This document shows positions 52,596 through 58,924 of a stretch of DNA of 62,664 bases, piece by piece (position 1 is the first letter of the stretch; the number at the start of each line of letters is the position of its first letter). The notes under the pieces were generated by a model. That model had not been told where the DNA came from. It was given only the letters and a program-made list of their open reading frames with translations, and did not search any database. Source of the DNA: Candidatus Shapirobacteria bacterium (GTDB lineage Bacteria > Patescibacteriota > Microgenomatia > UBA12405); NCBI GenBank assembly GCA_028704635.1, contig JAQWFB010000006.1, forward strand, positions 1 to 62,664, read 5' to 3'. A program made the position numbers and the translations under genes.

Positions 52596-52628
52596 AACCG
52601 AAAAAATAAAAAAAGAAAAGGCGGTAAT
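52596..52628 (+). repeat. 33-nt A-rich leader motif, copy A (AACCGAAAAAATAAAAAAAGAAAAGGCGGTAAT)
   Basis: 33/33 identical to 52992-53024. It ends 4 nt before an ATG and contains the SD-like AAAGGCGG. Confidence 0.85.
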
Positions 52629-52632
52629 AGAA

Positions 52633-52767
52633 ATGGAATATCATTTAATTAGATTAACTTGTGCGATAGTTTTAATTTTCTCAACGTTAACCCTTGTTGC
52701 GTTAACAAAAACATTTGGTTTTTTAGTACTAGAGGAAATATGGGAGCTGTTTATGTTGTCGTGGTAA
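52633..52767 (+). CDS. Small hydrophobic peptide (44 aa), cassette ORF A
   Basis: Manual translation: MEYHLIRLTCAIVLIFSTLTLVALTKTFGFLVLEEIWELFMLSW. It is preceded by leader copy A and falls below the ORF-track size cutoff. Confidence 0.4.
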   Translation: MEYHLIRLTCAIVLIFSTLTLVALTKTFGFLVLEEIWELFMLSW

Positions 52768-52852: not shown

Positions 52853-53005
52853 ATGACTTTTATAATTTTAATAATACTTATAATAATATCCATAATTTTT
52901 ATAGCGGCACGCAATTTTCTTATTTCCATGTTTCTTTTTGAAGCCGATGATATTGATGTCTACAAATACTATAAACATTATGAACTAATGCAACCGAAAA
53001 AATAA
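52853..53005 (+). CDS. Small membrane peptide (50 aa), cassette ORF B
   Basis: Manual translation: MTFIILIILIIISIIFIAARNFLISMFLFEADDIDVYKYYKHYELMQPKK. Its last codons and stop lie inside leader copy C. Confidence 0.4.
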   Translation: MTFIILIILIIISIIFIAARNFLISMFLFEADDIDVYKYYKHYELMQPKK

Positions 53006-53024
53006 AAAAAGAAAAGGCGGTAAT
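52992..53024 (+). repeat. 33-nt A-rich leader motif, copy C
   Basis: Identical to copy A. It is followed 4 nt later by ATG at 53029. Confidence 0.85.
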
Positions 53025-53028
53025 GATA

Positions 53029-53529
53029 ATGACATATTATAATTACTATTACACCCCAGTATCGTATGCCCCATGTTTTTTAATGTTATTACTAAGTTTT
53101 GTAATGTTGTTTCTTTCTCTTATGTCCTTCCGTCTTAGTAAAAGCACCACAGGCGATATTTTTTATATACAAAAATATTATAGTTCAAAACAACAAGCAG
53201 TCGGTCAAACCAATATAAAGTTGAAAAAAAATAAACTTTTATGTTTTCCAAATCCAATAGCTGTAACTTTTATTGCAAAAAAAGAATTTACAGTTTTAGT
53301 TAAAAATCACGGATCAATAAGAGAGGTTTCGGCATATCAAAAAGATGATCATTTTTTAGCAGAAGGAAAAGCAATAGAATTTAAAAATTATACAACAAAA
53401 GTAAATTGTTCATTTTATTTTCGGGGAGAATATTCGATTAATACTCTACGTGTCGCCGGAGATGTAATTTTATTTGCAATAATAATACTTTTAACCATAA
53501 TTTCCATATTATGGATATTTCTACATTAA
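53029..53529 (+). CDS. Hypothetical membrane protein (166 aa; N- and C-terminal TM segments), cassette ORF C
   Basis: ORF-track protein (listed from 53023). ATG at 53029 gives the same 4-nt spacing from the leader motif as ORF A. Tyr-rich N-terminus (TYYNYYYTPVSY). Confidence 0.55.
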   Translation: MTYYNYYYTPVSYAPCFLMLLLSFVMLFLSLMSFRLSKSTTGDIFYIQKYYSSKQQAVGQTNIKLKKNKLLCFPNPIAVTFIAKKEFTVLVKNHGSIREVSAYQKDDHFLAEGKAIEFKNYTTKVNCSFYFRGEYSINTLRVAGDVILFAIIILLTIISILWIFLH

Positions 53530-53676: not shown

Positions 53677-55485
53677 ATGAAAGCCCGTGATTTAAAGGAA
53701 AAATTCATCAATTTTTTTGTTGCCCAAAAACATATCGAAATTCCCTCGGCCAGTTTAACTCCAGAAAATGACCCAACCACTCTTTTTATTTCCGCCGGCA
53801 TGCATCCTTTAGTTCCCTATCTTTTAGGCCAACCTCATCCACTTGGCAAAAGATTAACTGATGTTCAAAAATGCGTCAGAACAGGTGACATCGACGAAGT
53901 TGGTGATGGTTACCATCACACTTTTTTTGAAATGTTAGGTAATTGGAGTCTTGGTGATTATTTTAAGACTGAAGCAATTTCTTGGAGCTACCAATTTCTG
54001 ACCAAAGAATTAAATATCGACCCTAAAAACCTTCATTTTACCTGCTTTGAGGGTGATCAAGATGCCCCAAAAGACACCGAATCCCATGATCTTTGGTTAA
54101 AACAAGGAATTCCAGAAGAAAGAATTCATTACTTACCTAAAAAAGATAATTGGTGGGGTCCAGCTGGCAGTGTTGGCCCTTGTGGTCCAGACACCGAAAT
54201 GTTTATTGATACTAATCCAAATATCGGAGAAATTGATTTTCAAACTGGTTGTAAACAGGGGAGAATTATTGAAATTTGGAACGATGTTTTCATGCAATAT
54301 TACAAAGATGAAAATGGTAAATTTTCCGAAATGAAGCAAAAAAATGTCGATACTGGTATGGGTGTTGAACGAACCACAGCAATTTTGTCGGGTTTTTCGG
54401 ACAATTATTTATCCGACATCTGGCAACCAATAATTAAAGCAATTGAAGTATTTACTCCAAAAAAATATGAAGATAACCCAAAAATTTTTAGAATCATAGC
54501 TGATCATCTTAAAGCTGCCGTTTTTATTATTGCTGATGGTGTCGAACCATCAAACAAAGAAGCAGGGTATGTTCTCCGTCGTCTCATCCGTCGAGCTGTC
54601 CGACAAGGAAAATTATTGGGAATCGAAAATAATTTTACTGTTCCAATCGCCACAGCTATTTTGAAAAATCAGGGCAACTATGCCGGAGTTTATTTGGAAT
54701 TAAATCAAAATAGAGACCGTATTTTTTCGGTTTTAGAAAATGAAGAAAATAAATTTAGAAAAACTTTAAACAATGGTCTTCGCGAAATCAATAAATTAAT
54801 CGAAAATAAAAAAATTAAATCAATAAAAAATCAAGATAATTCTTTACTAAATATTAGCGGTAAAGAAGCTTTTACTCTTTATGAAAGTTTCGGTTTTCCA
54901 ATTGAAATGGTCGAAGAAGAACTACAAAAAAATAATTTAACCTTAAATAAGGAAGAATTTGAAGAAGCAAAATTAGCTCATCAAAAGCAGTCTCAGACTT
55001 TGTCTGCTGGCAAATTCAAGTCCGGTCTAGCAAATAATTCTGAAATTATTACTAAATATCACACCGCCACTCATTTATTACATTCTGCTTTAAGAAAAAT
55101 TTTAGGGGACAACGTTCAACAATCAGGTTCCAATATCACTTCCGAAAGGTTGCGTTTCGATTTTTCTCATTCTGAAAAATTAACTGACGACCAATTAAAA
55201 GAAGTGCAAGATTTAGTTAATCAGCAAATAAAATTAGATTTACCAGTCGTTATTGAAACCATGCCTTTTGTTGAAGCTCAAAAACAAAATGCTCTGGCTT
55301 TCTTTGGTAATAAATATCCGGAAACTGTCACCGTTTATACTATTGGTTCGGCAGAAAATTATTTTTCCAAAGAAGTTTGCACTGGTCCTCATGTGACTCG
55401 TTTATCCGAGTTAGGAAATTTTGAAATAATTAAAGAAGAATCTGCTGGTTCTGGCAAACGTCGTATTTACGCCATCTTAAAATAA
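53677..55485 (+). CDS. alaS: Alanyl-tRNA synthetase (short form without C-Ala domain)
   Basis: 602 aa. FFVAQKHIEIPSASL, FTNAGM-like (FISAGMHP), RTGDIDEVGDGYHHTFFEMLGNWS, and the editing-domain motifs HTATHLLHSALR and CTGPHV. Confidence 0.92.
   Translation: MKARDLKEKFINFFVAQKHIEIPSASLTPENDPTTLFISAGMHPLVPYLLGQPHPLGKRLTDVQKCVRTGDIDEVGDGYHHTFFEMLGNWSLGDYFKTEAISWSYQFLTKELNIDPKNLHFTCFEGDQDAPKDTESHDLWLKQGIPEERIHYLPKKDNWWGPAGSVGPCGPDTEMFIDTNPNIGEIDFQTGCKQGRIIEIWNDVFMQYYKDENGKFSEMKQKNVDTGMGVERTTAILSGFSDNYLSDIWQPIIKAIEVFTPKKYEDNPKIFRIIADHLKAAVFIIADGVEPSNKEAGYVLRRLIRRAVRQGKLLGIENNFTVPIATAILKNQGNYAGVYLELNQNRDRIFSVLENEENKFRKTLNNGLREINKLIENKKIKSIKNQDNSLLNISGKEAFTLYESFGFPIEMVEEELQKNNLTLNKEEFEEAKLAHQKQSQTLSAGKFKSGLANNSEIITKYHTATHLLHSALRKILGDNVQQSGSNITSERLRFDFSHSEKLTDDQLKEVQDLVNQQIKLDLPVVIETMPFVEAQKQNALAFFGNKYPETVTVYTIGSAENYFSKEVCTGPHVTRLSELGNFEIIKEESAGSGKRRIYAILK
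55465..55484 (+). repeat. Direct repeat copy 1: last 20 nt of alaS (ATTTACGCCATCTTAAAATA)
   Basis: Perfectly repeated at 58871-58890. It encodes IYAILK plus the first two bases of the stop codon. Confidence 0.9.
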
Positions 55486-55514
55486 TAAATATATTAATTA
55501 AAAATATTTTCTTT

Positions 55515-55889
55515 ATGAAAACATTAAAATTAAAAAATGGGAAATATTTTCATGGACAATATGAAAATAATGAAAAAACTAAAGGGTGGTTTATTGGATC
55601 ATTTTTTGACAAAGGTAATTATTGTAAGACAGATAAATTAGAAATAATGTATTGCTTTCATAAAAAAGGCGACATTATTGAAACTCATTATCACAAGAAA
55701 AAAGTTGAGTTGTTAATAATCCTTCAAGGAAGTGCAAAATATACCATTAATGGCAAAGATATTCTTTTAAAGAAAGGCGATTTTCTTTTTATAGATGTGA
55801 ATAATTTAATTTCTGGTGAATTTATTAAACCTTCAAAAATTTTTGCTATTCATTCCCCAAGTATTCCAAGTGATAAATTTAAACCCTAG
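55515..55889 (+). CDS. Cupin-domain protein
   Basis: 124 aa. KGWFIGSFF..ETHYHKKKVELLIILQGSAKYTINGKDILLKKGDFLFI is a cupin metal-site-like pattern (HxH...E). Confidence 0.55.
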   Translation: MKTLKLKNGKYFHGQYENNEKTKGWFIGSFFDKGNYCKTDKLEIMYCFHKKGDIIETHYHKKKVELLIILQGSAKYTINGKDILLKKGDFLFIDVNNLISGEFIKPSKIFAIHSPSIPSDKFKP

Positions 55890-55928
55890 TTATAATTTAT
55901 ATGTAATAAATACACATTTAATAAAATA

Positions 55929-55956
55929 TTGATTTTTACCTGTCTTGTGGTAGAAT
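55929..55956 (+). promoter_or_regulatory. Promoter of the radical SAM operon
   Basis: TTGATT (55929-55934), a 16-nt spacer ending in TG, then TAGAAT (55951-55956). It lies 13 nt upstream of the ATG at 55970. Confidence 0.5.
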
Positions 55957-55969
55957 TTAACGAAATAGA

Positions 55970-56818
55970 ATGAAAATAAGAACAAAGCCAGATGTCGATA
56001 GTGTTGGTAAATATATAGTTTTTATTGAAGATTGTAAAAACCCTTCTGATTTAGATCTTTTTTTAGAAAAAAATAAAGGTTTATTTTCTAAATTTTATAT
56101 TAATTCAATTTTTAAAAATAAAATTAAAAGCAATTTAAATATAAATTGGCTTACTAAAGAAAAAATAAAAGAAAAATATAAAGAAGATATAATCATACCT
56201 AAATGGATTTTAGTAGAAGATAATTTTAAAAAAATTATATCTGGAAAATGGAATGAAATAATGCCTATTACGGCCGAATTTACTCCTACCTTAAATTGTA
56301 ATTTTAGATGTAATCAATGTTCTTACTCTGTTCCTAAACAAAAATTAGGTGTGTGGAAAAAGAAAAATTCAAAAGAATTTAGTTCTGATTTTGAAGGTCA
56401 AAATATTCATATGACACTAGAATCAGCAAAAAAAATTATAGACAAATTAAAATCTGGTGGAGTAAAAAATATTTTATTTACAGGCGGCGGGGAACCATTT
56501 ATTAATCCAGATGTGACAATAAAGGGTATGTTTTATGCCAAAGAAAAAGGGTTAATCATTGGTCTTTATAGTAACGGATCGTTGTTAAATAAAGAAATAA
56601 TTAAAGATATTTTTAAAATAAATCCTTTATTTATAAGAATTAGTATTTATGGCAGTAACCCAGAAAGTTTTTCTAAATATACAAATCAATCACCAAAATT
56701 ATATAGTCGTGTCCTTGAAAATGTTAGGCTATTAGCTCAAGAGAAAATAAAAACTAAATCATCAACTCAAATTGGGTTGTCTTTTTTTACTCCATCCAGA
56801 TACTACAGAAGATCTTGA
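55970..56818 (+). CDS. Radical SAM enzyme, N-terminal fragment (frameshifted at a T7 run)
   Basis: CNFRCNQC (CxxxCxxC) cluster after a roughly 100-aa N-terminal extension, plus ILFTGGGEPFINPD (SAM-binding GGE motif). The frame terminates 30 nt after the T7 tract at 56782-56788. Confidence 0.75.
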   Translation: MKIRTKPDVDSVGKYIVFIEDCKNPSDLDLFLEKNKGLFSKFYINSIFKNKIKSNLNINWLTKEKIKEKYKEDIIIPKWILVEDNFKKIISGKWNEIMPITAEFTPTLNCNFRCNQCSYSVPKQKLGVWKKKNSKEFSSDFEGQNIHMTLESAKKIIDKLKSGGVKNILFTGGGEPFINPDVTIKGMFYAKEKGLIIGLYSNGSLLNKEIIKDIFKINPLFIRISIYGSNPESFSKYTNQSPKLYSRVLENVRLLAQEKIKTKSSTQIGLSFFTPSRYYRRS

Positions 56819-57410
56819 TCAAATTGAAAAATATTTAGCGAAAACATTATCTTTAAACGAATTAAAAGTAATTAATTCTTGTCGTTTTACACCGGCCGTT
56901 GATTATTTTGGAGGCCCACAACATTCAGACGAAACAATGAGAAAAATCTTTCTTTTTATTAAAAAAAATATTAAATCAAAATTAGAAAAATACGGAATTG
57001 ATGTTAAATTGTACTTCCACCGATTAAATGATCTTAACAAGAAAAAAACTTATAAAAAATGTAGAGCATCGGGATGGTATTTAGAAGTTGGTCCTTCTGG
57101 AGATGTGTTTATTTGTTGCGAAAAACTTTTTTCTGATGATAGTAAAATTGGTAATCTAAAAAATCAATCAATTAAAGATATCTATAAAAGTGATTTGAGA
57201 AAAAAAATAATTAACAATGTTGATTTTTGTGAATGTAAAGAATGTCCACCAGTCTGTAAGCCTCATGAACTCAATAAAATTTTTAATAATATTGATACCT
57301 TAATTAAGGGAGGAAATACTGATTCTATAAAAAAATGGAGGAATGATATTTTAGAACGTGGGGAAAATGTTAATCATTTTGCTGGTAAGCTAAATGATTT
57401 TGAAAGTTAA
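56772..57410 (+). CDS. Radical SAM enzyme, C-terminal fragment with SPASM/twitch-like Cys cluster
   Basis: It continues the barrel (LLHPDTTEDL...). The Cys cluster reads CRASGWYLEVGPSGDVFICC...IGNLKNQSIKDIY...CECKECPPVC. Removing one T from the T7 run fuses it in-frame to the upstream fragment (..QIGLSFLLHPDTTEDL..). Confidence 0.7.
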   Translation: MGCLFLLHPDTTEDLDQIEKYLAKTLSLNELKVINSCRFTPAVDYFGGPQHSDETMRKIFLFIKKNIKSKLEKYGIDVKLYFHRLNDLNKKKTYKKCRASGWYLEVGPSGDVFICCEKLFSDDSKIGNLKNQSIKDIYKSDLRKKIINNVDFCECKECPPVCKPHELNKIFNNIDTLIKGGNTDSIKKWRNDILERGENVNHFAGKLNDFES

Positions 57411-57425
57411 AAATTTAAAAAAAAT

Positions 57426-58085
57426 ATGAATAAAGAAAATGATAAAAATTCTGAGAGTAATCAAAGTAGTTCAATTTTTGAAAAACTTGATAATCAAAGA
57501 AAAGAATTAGGGTTTTTCACTATAGGTGAATTATTAGAGTTAAGTGACCGTAAAAATATTATTTTAGATCCGATGTCTACCCTTATTAGTAAGGATGCTA
57601 ATATTGGTTCAGAAAACATTTTTTACCCCAATACTATTATTGAAAAACAAGGTGGTGGAACTATAGAAATAGGTAGTAAAAACATTTTTTACCCACAAAC
57701 TTTTATTGTCGCTAGTTTAGGAAAAATAAAAATTGGAAATGGTAATCAGTTTGGAGATGGTGGTTTGAGTATTAAAGCAAATTATCCAAATACAGACATT
57801 TCAATTGGGAATAATTGTAGGTTGTTAAATGGTGTGCAGATATTAGGAATAACACATTTAGGTTCAGGATCACAGATAATAGGAGGCCAATTAACAGTCC
57901 AGGATTGTTTTTTAGAAGACGGTAAAGACTTTACATTTCCAGATACTGACGAAAGAGGTGGTGTTATTAAAGGTTTTGGTTTAATAAGAAATATCAAAAT
58001 AGAAAAAGGTAAAGTTATCAACGGACAAGGCTCTTTTGACCAGTCAATGGTACAAGATCAGTCCTTTTATCATCCCAAAAAATAA
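57426..58085 (+). CDS. Left-handed beta-helix (hexapeptide-repeat) transferase-like protein
   Basis: 219 aa with repeated [LIV]-G-x4 turns: ANIGSENIFYPNTIIE, IEIGSKNIFYPQTFIV, IKIGNGNQFGDGGLSI, ISIGNNCRLLNGVQIL, THLGSGSQIIGG. Confidence 0.55.
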   Translation: MNKENDKNSESNQSSSIFEKLDNQRKELGFFTIGELLELSDRKNIILDPMSTLISKDANIGSENIFYPNTIIEKQGGGTIEIGSKNIFYPQTFIVASLGKIKIGNGNQFGDGGLSIKANYPNTDISIGNNCRLLNGVQILGITHLGSGSQIIGGQLTVQDCFLEDGKDFTFPDTDERGGVIKGFGLIRNIKIEKGKVINGQGSFDQSMVQDQSFYHPKK

Positions 58086-58086
58086 C

Positions 58087-58863
58087 ATGAAATCAGTTGA
58101 ATTAGGTCTCGGTTTAATAGGTATTGGACGAGAATGGGGGAATATACCTTCTCCTATTCCAAATGAAACTGAAGCAACGGAATTTCTTAAAAAATCAGTT
58201 GACCTTGGCATTTTATTTTTAGATACCGCACCAGCATACGGTTCTAGTGAAAAAAAATTAGGAATTTTTTTAAAGACATTAAGTGATGGAGAAAGACAAA
58301 GTTTAACCGTATCAACAAAATTTGGCGAACATTGGGATGAAAATAACAATCAATCGTATGTGGATCATTCATATGAAGCTTTATGTCGAAGCATAGACAA
58401 AAGTATAAATATTCTTGGAAAAATAGATCTTTTACAGCTACATAAATCAAATCCAGATGTATTAATTAGTCGAGATTTTTTCAGATCATTAGATTATGCC
58501 AGGAAAAAAGGTATTTTTGAATTTGGAGCAAGCGTTAGTGATCTCATTTCTGGAGAAATTGCAATTAGATCTAAAGATATTTCTGTTATACAAATACCGT
58601 TTAACGAGTCCAACCAAAGTTTGGAAAAATTAATAGATTTGTCGATTATAAACAATAAAACACTAATTATAAACAGACCATTTAATTCCGGAAAAAATAT
58701 ATTACCTGACACAACTAAGGAAGAAAAAAAGATAACTTTAATCAATTCATTTAGGTTTATTCTAAAAAAGCCATTTTATGGTTTTATATTAACTGGAACT
58801 ACATCAATCGATCATCTTAAGGAAAATATAGAGGCTTTTAATAAAGCAAAAGAGGAAATATAA
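58087..58863 (+). CDS. Aldo/keto reductase family oxidoreductase
   Basis: 258 aa from ATG at 58087. LGLGLIGIGREWG, FLDTAPAYGSSE (the AKR D..Y motif region), and LLQLHK. Confidence 0.7.
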   Translation: MKSVELGLGLIGIGREWGNIPSPIPNETEATEFLKKSVDLGILFLDTAPAYGSSEKKLGIFLKTLSDGERQSLTVSTKFGEHWDENNNQSYVDHSYEALCRSIDKSINILGKIDLLQLHKSNPDVLISRDFFRSLDYARKKGIFEFGASVSDLISGEIAIRSKDISVIQIPFNESNQSLEKLIDLSIINNKTLIINRPFNSGKNILPDTTKEEKKITLINSFRFILKKPFYGFILTGTTSIDHLKENIEAFNKAKEEI

Positions 58864-58870
58864 AATTTTC

Positions 58871-58890
58871 ATTTACGCCATCTTAAAATA
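58871..58890 (+). repeat. Direct repeat copy 2 (pseudo 3' end of alaS)
   Basis: 20/20 identical to 55465-55484. It again reads IYAILK followed by a stop (TAG). Confidence 0.9.
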
Positions 58891-58924
58891 GGCTAAATCG
58901 TCAAAAATATTGTATCCTTACATA

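What the first reader, a model, noticed from the sequence alone, without database searches (positions are those of the whole stretch)
55515..58863. Islet cargo: cupin / radical SAM-SPASM / hexapeptide-repeat / aldo-keto reductase operon with no obvious pathway assignment
The four genes are separated by 1-80 nt and sit behind a TTGATT-16-TAGAAT promoter.
- The radical SAM protein has a roughly 100-aa N-terminal extension of unknown fold, the CNFRCNQC cluster and a GGGEPF motif.
- Its C-terminal auxiliary-cluster region (C..GPSGDVFICC..IGNL..SIKDIY..CECKECPPVC) follows the SPASM/twitch pattern.
- SPASM/twitch enzymes are known to modify peptides (RiPPs, sulfatase maturation) or carbohydrates and cyclitols (BtrN type).
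- The partners here (cupin, LbH acyl/nucleotidyl-transferase-like, AKR) look more like small-molecule or sugar tailoring than RiPP maturation.
- I found no precursor peptide, glycosyltransferase or transporter in the islet.

For an organism with this minimal a gene set, a horizontally acquired radical-SAM tailoring module is unexpected, and I cannot place it in a described pathway.
Basis: partly seen in the sequence, partly recalled or inferred. Interest (0 to 1): 0.7.

Follow-up and report, generated by a model that had tools for sequence, protein, structure and literature searches.

The report
Inserted radical-SAM, beta-helix, reductase gene cassette
A 3.4-kb piece of foreign DNA inserted behind the alanyl-tRNA synthetase gene of a tiny-genome (Shapirobacteria-like) bacterium carries a broken copy of an uncharacterised three-enzyme module, the oxygen-free version of a flavin-oxidase module found in many ordinary bacteria, and nobody yet knows what molecule it acts on.

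Summary
The radical SAM gene is split by one extra T in a T7 run (56782-56788).

The block is a true insertion. A perfect 20-nt repeat brackets it, and five related genomes have the empty site with a single copy.

The operon has three genes, not four. The conserved promoter lies between the cupin gene and the radical SAM gene, and the cupin's close homologs sit elsewhere without the other three.

The radical SAM protein belongs to a rare, unnamed family. Its nearest solved relative is the sugar-nucleotide deaminase DesII. It has a conserved N-domain, a reduced SPASM (twitch-like) Cys set and an invariant C-terminal tail (NDFES).

The beta-helix protein has no Pfam or NCBIfam family but is widespread. 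In 80 loci it pairs with the same short reductase in 28. Directly upstream lies a DAO-family flavoenzyme (20 loci) or this radical SAM enzyme (4 loci plus the window), never both.

My best reading is an anaerobic oxidise-then-reduce module acting on an anionic small molecule, possibly a sugar phosphate or nucleotide sugar. The substrate is unknown. Here the module is probably decaying, and a sister lineage carries a more degraded copy.

The parts
55465..55484 (+). Left copy of the 20-nt direct repeat ATTTACGCCATCTTAAAATA. It is the last codons and stop codon of alaS.
   Evidence: family D14, 100% identical, spacing 3406. Relatives carry one copy at the alaS/next-gene junction.
55485..58870 (+). 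Inserted cassette (3386 nt), absent from five related genomes.
   Evidence: blastn: window 53653-55484 matches L086 4144-5981, and window 58871-61812 matches L086 5962-8903, so the two alignments overlap by exactly the 20 nt. GC falls to 0.249 with positive GC skew. Homology to the L007 copy starts at 55491.
55515..55889 (+). Small cupin (124 aa). It is a passenger and not part of the conserved triad.
   Evidence: Cupin_2 5e-9. The HxH...E...G motif is visible in the sequence. Homologs at 66-80% identity occur without the radical SAM, LbH or AKR genes. It is present with the radical SAM gene only in L007.
55929..55956 (+). Sigma-70-like promoter TTGATT-16-TAGAAT with a TG extension, placed between the cupin and the radical SAM gene.
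   Evidence: It is conserved as TTGATT-17-TATAAT in L007.
55970..57410 (+). Radical SAM / reduced-SPASM enzyme gene, frameshifted (479 aa once one T is removed). Domains: N-domain residues 1-~98, radical SAM core, Cys-rich C-domain, conserved C-terminal tail ending NDFES.
56782..56788 (+). T7 homopolymer that causes the frameshift. It is preceded by the hairpin 56763-56779.
   Evidence: L007 has T6 and an open frame here. The hairpin plus T-run is the only terminator-like hit in the region.
57426..58085 (+). Left-handed beta-helix protein (219 aa) from a widespread family with no Pfam or NCBIfam assignment.
   Evidence: Hexapep match below threshold. 71 homologs, almost none with a Pfam domain. 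AF2 model pLDDT 90 with an N-terminal helix followed by beta coils. Foldseek finds the GlmU LbH domain and gamma-carbonic anhydrases, weakly. PDB profile hits are generic LbH proteins only.
58087..58863 (+). Short aldo-keto reductase (258 aa) of the PA4992 type.
   Evidence: PF00248 3.8e-24. D46, Y51, K78 and H119 are invariant in alignment A3. It aligns end to end with 4exa, 1.4e-18 singly and 2.4e-35 as a profile. Orthologues lie next to LbH genes in DAO-type loci.
58871..58890 (+). Right copy of the 20-nt direct repeat.

Best explanation
Shown:
- Window 55485-58870 is a horizontally inserted cassette at the 3' end of alaS, flanked by a 20-nt duplication.
- It carries a passenger cupin gene and a three-gene operon: radical SAM, then LbH, then AKR.
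- The same LbH-AKR pair occurs in many bacteria. The gene directly upstream is either a DAO-family FAD oxidoreductase or this radical SAM enzyme, never both. An EamA exporter often follows.

Inferred mechanism:
- The radical SAM enzyme is the oxygen-independent counterpart of the flavoenzyme.
- Its 5'-deoxyadenosyl radical abstracts a hydrogen from a CH-OH or CH-NH2 carbon of an anionic small molecule.
- The substrate radical then becomes a carbonyl. Either the single auxiliary [4Fe-4S] cluster accepts the electron (BtrN or anSME type), or a DesII-type elimination takes place.
- The NAD(P)H-dependent AKR reduces that carbonyl. The net result is epimerisation, or replacement of an amino or hydroxyl group.
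- The LbH trimer acylates the substrate or product, or holds it.
- The most likely substrate class is a sugar phosphate or nucleotide-linked sugar. This is the weakest step.

Status in this genome: the radical SAM gene carries a +1 T frameshift, so the module is probably inactive and decaying.
For: Insertion:
-.

Conserved triad:
- L001, L002/L003 and L008 have radical SAM - LbH - AKR.
- The LbH gene lies directly upstream of the radical SAM gene in L015, and the AKR gene does so in L017.

Swap of the upstream enzyme:
- Among 80 unique LbH loci, the AKR orthologue is adjacent in 28, a DAO enzyme directly upstream in 20, an EamA gene downstream in 17, and the radical SAM gene directly upstream in 4.
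- DAO and radical SAM are never found together.
- AKRs from DAO-type loci score as high against the window AKR (245 and 216 bits) as those from radical SAM loci (255-258 bits).

Chemistry:
- DesII is the top hit by sequence profile (1e-16, next best 1e-8) and by fold (2e-15).
- DesII gives a 3-keto sugar by either deamination or dehydrogenation (PMC11434129).
- The SPASM Pfam match is above its cut-off, and five Cys are invariant.
- The AKR catalytic residues are invariant.
- The DAO partner is closest to glycerol-3-phosphate and 2-hydroxyglutarate oxidases.

Anionic or sugar substrate:
- L017 reads epimerase/dehydratase - AKR - radical SAM - RmlD-like - UDPGP.
- In L091 the module lies beside Bac_transf, Wzy_C and GtrA genes.
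- In L167 the LbH gene (no AKR or DAO called there) lies beside a nucleotide-sugar dehydrogenase and a glycosyltransferase.
- Archaeal loci pair the radical SAM gene with NUDIX, HD, HAD and dCMP-deaminase genes.
- The PA4991 paper infers a phosphate or carboxylate substrate.

Decay:
- L007 has a different frameshift, an LbH remnant and no AKR.
- The same arrangement is seen at 22 of the 23 contigs read.
Against: - No substrate has been identified, and no member of the radical SAM, LbH or DAO partner families has a demonstrated activity.
- The swap argument is positional and correlative.
- Radical SAM homologs at about 40% identity in DPANN archaea lack the LbH and AKR genes and sit with nucleotide-type genes. 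The family may therefore not have a single substrate.
- Genes flanking the DAO-type modules are heterogeneous and give no pathway clue.
- About half of the LbH loci have none of these partners.
- The LbH protein lacks an obvious conserved catalytic His within the coils. Only H216, near the C-terminus, is conserved.
- The number of auxiliary clusters is inferred from the Cys count, not measured.
- The frameshift could be a homopolymer sequencing error. I could not find an independent assembly to check.
Confidence: 0.5

Rival explanations
1. Xenobiotic or antibiotic detoxification cassette. The chemistry is the same (oxidise, reduce, acylate), but the substrate is an external toxin. The modified product is pumped out by the EamA, LysE or MFS exporter that accompanies many copies.
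For: - The cassette is self-contained and mobile, with resolvases, an IS66 transposase and LysR regulators in its flanks.
- It occurs on Pantoea, Pannonibacter and Rhizobium plasmids.
- Exporters are adjacent in 17 of 80 loci, with LysE or MFS types in others.
- A VOC/bleomycin-resistance-type protein and immunity-like genes lie next to L001 and L002.
- LbH acetyltransferases and AKRs are classic detoxifying enzymes (general knowledge).
- Patchy presence and decay fit an accessory trait.
Against: - No resistance family matches any of the proteins.
- The window cassette has no exporter.
- Radical SAM enzymes are unusual for detoxification.
- Several loci sit in polysaccharide or nucleotide-sugar contexts instead.
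Confidence: 0.17
2. Viperin-like nucleotide-modifying module. The radical SAM enzyme dehydrates or rearranges a nucleotide, and the AKR reduces the resulting keto or aldehyde intermediate. The product is a modified nucleotide used in antiviral defence or salvage.
For: - PADLOC pVip models are the only defence-library hits (44.9 bits).
- Viperins appear among the fold matches.
- DPANN and other loci pair the radical SAM gene with two NUDIX genes, a kinase-like protein (my reading of its motifs), and dCMP deaminase, HAD and HD genes.
- LigT-like genes lie next to the LbH gene in at least two loci.
- The gene is mobile and patchily distributed.
Against: - The pVip hits cover only the generic radical SAM core. 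NF038283 scores 39.9 against a cut-off of 180.
- Viperins have no SPASM domain.
- DesII outranks viperins by many orders of magnitude.
- A DAO-family oxidase in the same slot does not fit viperin-type chemistry.
- No defence-system model matches the LbH, AKR or cupin proteins.
Confidence: 0.13
3. Peptide or protein maturase (RiPP-like or anSME-like). The N-terminal domain recognises a peptide or the partner protein, and the SPASM region supports cross-linking or oxidation of a residue.
For: - The SPASM domain is above its Pfam cut-off.
- CteB, TigE, SuiB and SkfB follow DesII closely in the fold search.
- NCBIfam's weak hits for the C-terminal half are all RiPP maturases.
- The N-terminal extension is conserved, and a free-standing homolog lies next to an LbH gene in Treponema pedis.
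- The enzyme's own C-terminal tail (NDFES) is strictly conserved.
Against: - There is no precursor-like ORF in the cassette.
- There is no PqqD/RRE match. The predicted N-domain topology is b-b-a-b-b-a-a, not the b3-a3 of an RRE (the RRE topology is from my own knowledge).
- Only five to six Cys are conserved instead of seven or more.
- The partners are small-molecule enzymes.
- A flavin oxidase occupies the same slot in other genomes.
Confidence: 0.06

Closest known systems
DesII (TDP-4-amino-4,6-dideoxy-D-glucose deaminase, desosamine pathway; PDB 8HZV/8HZY)
   Same: - It is the best match by sequence profile (1e-16) and by fold (2e-15, TM 0.52).
- Both have three domains: an N-terminal extension, the radical SAM core and a C-domain with a beta-hairpin.
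- The ribose motif is similar (IRISIYG against IRTSLYG).
- DesII produces a keto group next to the abstracted carbon, which a reductase could act on.
   Different: - TIGR04426 scores 43.6 bits against a cut-off of 450, so this protein is not a member.
- DesII has a single cluster. This family keeps a Cys-rich reduced SPASM region.
- The DesII N-domain is six helices, whereas here it is mixed alpha/beta.
- No desosamine-pathway genes are nearby.
Radical SAM dehydrogenases with auxiliary clusters (BtrN twitch type, anSME SPASM type)
   Same: - A CX12GX4C element plus further Cys, typical of an auxiliary cluster that accepts the substrate-radical electron.
- BtrN appears among the profile hits (4.8e-7) and the fold hits (1.8e-8).
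- This is the mechanistic model for an oxygen-free equivalent of a flavin dehydrogenase.
   Different: - Similarity is low, and TIGR03942 is far below its cut-off.
- The N-domain and the C-terminal tail are different.
- Cluster number and role have not been tested.
AprD4/AprD3 (radical SAM diol dehydratase plus NADPH-dependent reductase, apramycin pathway)
   Same: The two-enzyme logic is the same: a radical SAM enzyme makes a ketone and a dedicated reductase reduces it, for a net deoxygenation. AprD4 is cited as a radical SAM dehydratase in PMC11434129. The pairing with AprD3 is from my own knowledge.
   Different: No homology was tested here. No aminoglycoside-pathway genes are present. The reductase here is an AKR.
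Pseudomonas aeruginosa PA4991 (GR2/DAO flavoenzyme, 5EZ7) and PA4992 (short AKR, 4EXA)
   Same: - PA4992 is the only PDB hit for the window AKR at E below 1e-10. It aligns end to end, with the DTAPAYG and Lys motifs conserved.
- PA4991 is the top PDB hit for the DAO enzyme that replaces the radical SAM enzyme.
- The two genes share an operon, and their substrate is unknown (PMC4741190).
   Different: - The similarity to PA4991 is weak (26 bits).
- I did not check whether an LbH gene lies in that operon.
- P. aeruginosa uses the flavoenzyme, not a radical SAM enzyme.
Sactipeptide and other SPASM RiPP maturases (CteB, SuiB, SkfB, TigE)
   Same: The SPASM-type C-domain fold and an N-terminal extra domain. 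Foldseek E-values run from 1e-13 to 1e-11.
   Different: There is no RRE, no precursor peptide, fewer Cys, and the gene partners are small-molecule enzymes.

Membership tests
Radical SAM superfamily | CX3CX2C cluster motif, GGE SAM-binding motif, PF04055 above its gathering score | tested here: met
   C110/C114/C117 and TGGGEP are invariant in 36 sequences. PF04055 scores 69.3 bits against 29.5. The AF2 model is confident, pLDDT 93.6.
SPASM domain (two auxiliary clusters) | PF13186 above its gathering score | tested here: met
   35.1 bits against 21.5.
SPASM domain (two auxiliary clusters) | Full seven-Cys motif CX9-15GX4C ... CX2CX5CX3C ... C (motif as I recall it) | tested here: not met
   The family has CX12GX4C(C) and then CX2CX3C. 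Five Cys are invariant (C364, C382, C425, C429 plus near-invariant C383), and C422 is missing in some members. This fits one twitch-like auxiliary cluster, which is my inference.
DesII (TIGR04426 equivalog) | Score above the curated cut-off | tested here: not met
   43.6 bits against 450.
Prokaryotic viperin (NF038283; PADLOC pVip) | Score above the cut-off and a viperin C-terminal domain | tested here: not met
   39.9 bits against 180. The PADLOC hit covers only the radical SAM core, residues 107-266.
RiPP maturase cluster | Adjacent precursor peptide gene | tested here: not met
   Six-frame ORF list down to 20 aa: only two short ORFs (31 and 38 aa) reach into the cupin-radical SAM spacer, neither confined to it or looking like a precursor.
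RiPP maturase cluster | RRE/PqqD-like recognition domain | tested here: not met
   No PF05402 match. The predicted N-domain topology is b-b-a-b-b-a-a. The N-domain alone was not searched by fold, so this is not exhaustive.
Aldo-keto reductase | PF00248 above its cut-off and the catalytic Asp/Tyr/Lys/His residues | tested here: met
   85.7 bits against 24. D46, Y51, K78 and H119 are invariant. D46, Y51 and K78 align with the PA4992 triad.
Hexapeptide-repeat (LbH) acyltransferase | PF00132 above its gathering score | tested here: not met
   16.3 bits against 27. Most homologs carry no Pfam annotation.
Hexapeptide-repeat (LbH) acyltransferase | Left-handed beta-helix fold | tested here: met
   AF2 pLDDT 90 with stacked short strands. 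Foldseek finds the GlmU LbH domain, gamma-carbonic anhydrases, LpxA and LpxD, at E-values of only 2e-4 to 1e-2.
Hexapeptide-repeat (LbH) acyltransferase | Acyl-CoA or ACP binding and a catalytic base | not testable with these tools
   Conserved polar residues are listed. The only near-invariant His is H216 in the C-terminal tail.
Cupin_2 | PF07883 above its cut-off and the metal-binding motif 1 | tested here: met
   36.1 bits against 27.2. The sequence GDIIETHYHKKKVELLIILQG fits G-X5-HXH-X4-E-X6-G.
Site-specific integrative element | Direct repeats that duplicate the target, and an empty site in relatives | tested here: met
Site-specific integrative element | Its own integrase or recombinase | tested here: not met
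   The cassette holds only the four genes. The mechanism of insertion is unknown.

The most novel reading that the evidence does not exclude
The radical SAM enzyme and the DAO-family flavoenzyme are isofunctional: anaerobic and aerobic catalysts for one still-unknown anionic metabolite. Together with the LbH protein, the PA4992-type AKR and often an EamA exporter, they would define a new and widespread pathway whose product is exported or placed on the cell surface. A bolder version is that the radical SAM/AKR pair performs an oxygen-independent deoxygenation or epimerisation of a ribose or hexose 1,2-diol in a nucleotide-linked substrate, following AprD4/AprD3 logic on a primary metabolite.
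Probability: 0.35. Interest if true: 0.75.

Novelty: new variant of a known kind. Interest (0 to 1): 0.55.

Why it matters
- **An unnamed module.** The finding points to a conserved module that no database names: a radical SAM family with about a dozen full-length 50%-identity clusters (623 clusters at E<=1e-30 in the wider family) and an LbH family with no Pfam or NCBIfam model.
- **A way to test it.** The radical SAM version appears interchangeable with a flavoenzyme version found in culturable bacteria (Myxococcus, Corallococcus, Rhizobium, Pantoea plasmids, Dickeya, Sporomusa). The function could therefore be studied by genetics and metabolomics in those hosts and then carried over to uncultured CPR and DPANN organisms.
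- **A link to an old orphan pair.** The module is related to the P. aeruginosa proteins PA4991 and PA4992, whose structures are solved but whose substrate has been unknown for a decade.
- **Gene flow in tiny genomes.** The window also gives a clean example of gene-cassette gain in a Shapirobacteria-like genome (20-nt target duplication, no integrase). A sister lineage shows the same cassette in decay.

Tried and rejected
- **PADLOC.** Only generic pVip core hits, so a defence-system assignment was rejected.
- **NCBIfam.** About 40 radical SAM equivalogs hit, all 10 to 20 times below their cut-offs, so none could be assigned.
- **Small ORFs.** Six-frame scan of 55485-58910 found no plausible precursor peptide.
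- **Frameshift reality.** An exact-match scan of the metagenome collection for the frameshift region with T6-T8 found nothing. The window's own LbH protein is not on record in the contig index. I therefore could not test whether T7 is a sequencing error.
- **Repeats around the L007 copy.** None of 12 nt or longer.
- **Archaeal partner proteins.** The 250-aa and 348-aa proteins found no PDB relatives. Calling the first kinase-like rests only on my reading of the motifs YRDxxxSN and HIDFSSS.
- **Flanks of DAO-type modules.** A Pfam census of 97 genes showed no recurrent pathway, only mobility genes and regulators.
- **Cupin as part of the module.** Rejected after looking at the contexts of its homologs.
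- **LbH loci search.** The first attempt, with the 35-sequence alignment, failed for lack of a conserved stretch. It was repeated with 10 sequences.
- **My ORF caller.** It loses genes in GC-rich loci, so the counts were redone with tblastn.

Full report
**1. What is in the sequence**

The window is AT-rich (about 31% GC). Its closest relatives in the genome collection are Candidatus Shapirobacteria MAGs.

On the + strand between 55515 and 58863 there are four ORFs.
- A 124-aa cupin: Cupin_2, 36.1 bits.
- A radical SAM gene read as two overlapping ORFs, 55970-56818 and 56772-57410. They score Radical_SAM 69.3 bits and SPASM 35.1 bits.
- A 219-aa protein with only a sub-threshold hexapeptide match.
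- An aldo-keto reductase.

The intergenic gaps are 80, 15 and 1 nt.

The split in the radical SAM gene lies in a T7 run at 56782-56788. Deleting one T gives a 479-aa protein. That protein aligns end to end with about 60 intact homologs of 460-490 aa, the best at 89% identity. A related genome has T6 and an open frame at this position. I could not find an independent assembly of this organism to decide between a true mutation and a homopolymer error.

**2. The block is an insertion**

A perfect 20-nt direct repeat, ATTTACGCCATCTTAAAATA, lies at 55465-55484 and again at 58871-58890. The first copy is the end of alaS, stop codon included.

Five related genomes (L086-L090) encode the downstream 728-aa protein at 65-88% identity. 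In at least four of them (L086-L089) alaS is followed directly by that gene, with one copy of the 20-nt sequence. The two blastn alignments of window to L086 overlap by exactly those 20 nt.

The inserted 3386 nt include the lowest-GC kilobase of the window (0.249) and have a positive GC skew, unlike most of the window. The cassette encodes no recombinase.

A second copy of the cassette exists in another Shapirobacteria genome (L007, 83% identity over window 55491-57704) at an unrelated chromosomal position. That homology starts 6 nt after the left repeat, which supports the repeat as the true cassette end.

In L007 the radical SAM gene is frameshifted at a different site, a poly-A run near codon 75. 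The LbH gene is a stop-ridden remnant and the AKR gene is gone. The same arrangement was seen at 22 of the 23 contigs read, from many samples, so that decay is real and not an assembly error.

**3. The operon has three genes**

The TTGATT-16-TAGAAT promoter-like site (55929-55956, with a TG extension) lies between the cupin and the radical SAM gene. It is conserved in L007.

Cupin homologs at 66-80% identity in other CPR genomes lie in unrelated neighbourhoods without the other three genes. Conversely, intact radical SAM - LbH - AKR triads elsewhere lack the cupin. L001 has a VOC/glyoxalase-family gene upstream instead, and L002 has nothing comparable.

I therefore treat the cupin as a passenger of this particular cassette.

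**4. The radical SAM protein**

Alignment of 36 family members shows these conserved features.
- C110, C114 and C117.
- TGGGEP.
- An RxSxY ribose motif.
- RFTPAVDY.
- C364-X12-G-X4-C382(C383).
- C(422)-X2-C425-X3-C429 followed by an invariant KPHE.
- A C-terminal tail, G-K-L-N-D-F-E-S, conserved to the last residue.

The first roughly 98 residues form a conserved domain. The AF2 model is confident (pLDDT 93.6) and predicts b-b-a-b-b-a-a for that domain.

No NCBIfam equivalog comes near its cut-off. The best is DesII, at 43.6 bits against 450.

Against solved structures, DesII is first both by sequence profile (1e-16, with MoaA next at 1e-8) and by fold (2e-15). CteB, TigE, SuiB and SkfB follow closely, then viperins and BtrN.

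DesII also has three domains, but it has a six-helix N-domain and only one cluster (PMC11434129). So this family resembles a DesII relative that keeps a reduced SPASM region. The Cys count fits one auxiliary cluster, which is my inference.

An exhaustive HMM search of 1.84 billion representative proteins finds 623 clusters at E<=1e-30. Only about a dozen cover the whole profile, N-domain and tail included. Some hits are domains inside proteins of 2,500-6,400 aa (giant Omnitrophota ORFs).

**5. The partners**

*The LbH protein.* It has 71 database relatives at 36-86% identity, almost all without a Pfam domain. RefSeq calls them 'hypothetical protein'. AF2 (pLDDT 90) gives a long N-terminal helix and then a left-handed beta-helix. 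Foldseek and the PDB profile search return only generic LbH proteins: the GlmU LbH domain, gamma-carbonic anhydrases and dynactin p27.

*The AKR.* It is a short form of 258 aa with invariant Asp, Tyr, Lys and His. Its only strong PDB relative is P. aeruginosa PA4992 (4EXA), a 270-aa NADP-binding AKR of unknown substrate.

**6. The key comparative result**

I collected 73 loci from the genome collection that encode the LbH protein, added the earlier ones, and scored the neighbours by tblastn. Among 80 unique loci:
- the orthologous AKR is adjacent in 28;
- a DAO-family FAD oxidoreductase abuts the LbH gene upstream in 20;
- an EamA exporter follows in 17;
- the radical SAM gene abuts it upstream in 4 (plus the window).

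DAO and radical SAM genes never co-occur, and they occupy the same position.

AKRs from DAO-type loci are as similar to the window AKR (245 and 216 bits) as those from radical SAM loci (255-258 bits).

The canonical operon DAO-LbH-AKR-EamA occurs in Myxococcus, Corallococcus, Rhizobium, Pannonibacter and Vandammella. Related forms occur elsewhere. DAO-LbH-AKR without the exporter is found in the CPR groups Saccharibacteria and Paceibacterota. DAO-LbH-EamA without the AKR is found on Pantoea plasmids.

The flanks of these modules are heterogeneous, with resolvases, LysR regulators and an IS66 transposase, so the module is self-contained and mobile.

The DAO partner is nearest to glycerol-3-phosphate and L-2-hydroxyglutarate oxidases, far below their cut-offs. 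Among solved structures it is nearest to PA4991. PA4991 shares an operon with PA4992. It was negative on glycerol-3-phosphate and on 41 amines, and its authors infer a phosphate- or carboxylate-bearing substrate (PMC4741190).

**7. How it most likely works**

Shown: a conserved LbH-AKR pair with one of two mutually exclusive upstream enzymes, one flavin-dependent and one radical SAM.

Inferred:
- The two upstream enzymes do the same job, which is oxidation of a CH-OH or CH-NH2 centre to a carbonyl. Oxygen-free radical chemistry replaces flavin chemistry in anaerobes, as BtrN and anSME do relative to their aerobic counterparts.
- The AKR then reduces the carbonyl with NAD(P)H. The net result is epimerisation, or replacement of an amino or hydroxyl group.
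- The LbH trimer acylates or holds the substrate.
- A DesII-type elimination followed by reduction, which is the AprD4/AprD3 logic, is an alternative for the first step.

*Substrate class.* Several independent loci sit among sugar-nucleotide or polysaccharide genes.
- L017: epimerase/dehydratase - AKR - radical SAM - RmlD-like - UDPGP.
- L091: Bac_transf, Wzy_C and GtrA.
- L167: a nucleotide-sugar dehydrogenase and a glycosyltransferase beside an LbH gene that has no AKR or DAO partner there.

DPANN archaeal loci instead pair a roughly 40%-identical radical SAM gene with other genes. These are two NUDIX genes, an unassigned 250-aa protein with kinase-like motifs, and dCMP deaminase, HAD and HD genes.

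Together with DesII as the nearest relative, this points to a phosphorylated or nucleotide-linked sugar-like molecule. It is the least secure step of the argument.

**8. Rivals**

- *A detoxification or resistance role.* It would use the same chemistry. Mobility, plasmid carriage, exporters and neighbouring VOC and immunity-like genes all fit it.
- *A viperin-like nucleotide-modifying role.* The archaeal contexts suggest it. The SPASM domain, the DesII ranking and the DAO swap argue against it.
- *A RiPP or protein maturase.* The SPASM fold and the extra N-domain suggest it. The absence of a precursor or RRE, the small-molecule partners and the DAO swap argue against it.

**9. Verdict**

- the unit is a triad, not four genes;
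- it is the anaerobic variant of a widespread orphan module, and here it is broken.

I rate it as a new variant of a known kind (radical SAM plus reductase tailoring), of moderate to good interest. The main reason is that the flavoenzyme version offers a tractable route to finding the function.

Noticed in passing
L020, L022, L025, L029, L063 (Omnitrophota/Planctomycetales loci), whole locus: The homologous radical SAM domain lies inside single ORFs that run through the entire 17-kb locus (more than 5,700 aa with no stop). The exhaustive search also lists hits inside proteins of 2,500-6,400 aa.
   Followed up: partly
L004, L009, L010, L012, L013 (DPANN archaea) and L014 (unclassified bacterium), downstream of the radical SAM gene: A second conserved neighbourhood: radical SAM, then a 250-aa protein with no Pfam match but YRDxxxSN / HIDFSSS / DDLAL motifs (kinase-like by eye), then one or two IDI/YfcD-like NUDIX proteins. 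In some loci a 348-aa unknown protein, a dCMP deaminase, a HAD hydrolase and an HD protein follow.
   Followed up: partly
L018 42-7722 and L027 3322-7641: Proteins of 1,100-1,440 aa with PPDK_N and PEP-utiliser domains lie directly upstream of the radical SAM homolog in a Planctomycetales and a Bryobacteraceae MAG. They cluster by BLAST with the archaeal NUDIX proteins.
   Followed up: no
L006 4682-4927 (Treponema pedis): An 81-aa ORF just upstream of a stand-alone LbH gene matches the HMM of the radical SAM N-terminal domain (E 9e-5 among 12,431 ORFs; profile positions 4-44). This hints that the N-domain works with the LbH protein. It is the only such case found.
   Followed up: partly
window 56763-56788: The frameshifting T7 run is preceded by a 7-bp hairpin (CAACTCAAATTGGGTTG). 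This is the only intrinsic-terminator-like hit in the 3.8-kb region, and it lies inside the radical SAM coding sequence.
   Followed up: no
window 52596-52644 and 52992-53040: A 49-nt direct repeat (88% identical) overlaps the start regions of two neighbouring short ORFs (44 and 168 aa) rich in hydrophobic residues. It looks like a duplicated 5' region.
   Followed up: no
window 53677-55485: The alanyl-tRNA synthetase is only 602 aa and ends right after the tRNA_SAD domain. Relatives align over the same 602 residues, so the short form is typical of the lineage.
   Followed up: no
L093, L111, L124 (about 1.7 kb upstream of the LbH gene): A third variant of the module: a 318-aa protein with no family match and a probable signal peptide, then a LysE exporter, then LbH, then AKR. 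It has neither a DAO nor a radical SAM gene.
   Followed up: no
L166 (Pantoea ananatis plasmid pOC5aB, 147173-149833 in the record): FAD oxidoreductase - LbH - EamA forms a small island on conjugative plasmids of onion-associated Pantoea. It sits next to a recombinase gene and a large P-loop NTPase gene.
   Followed up: no
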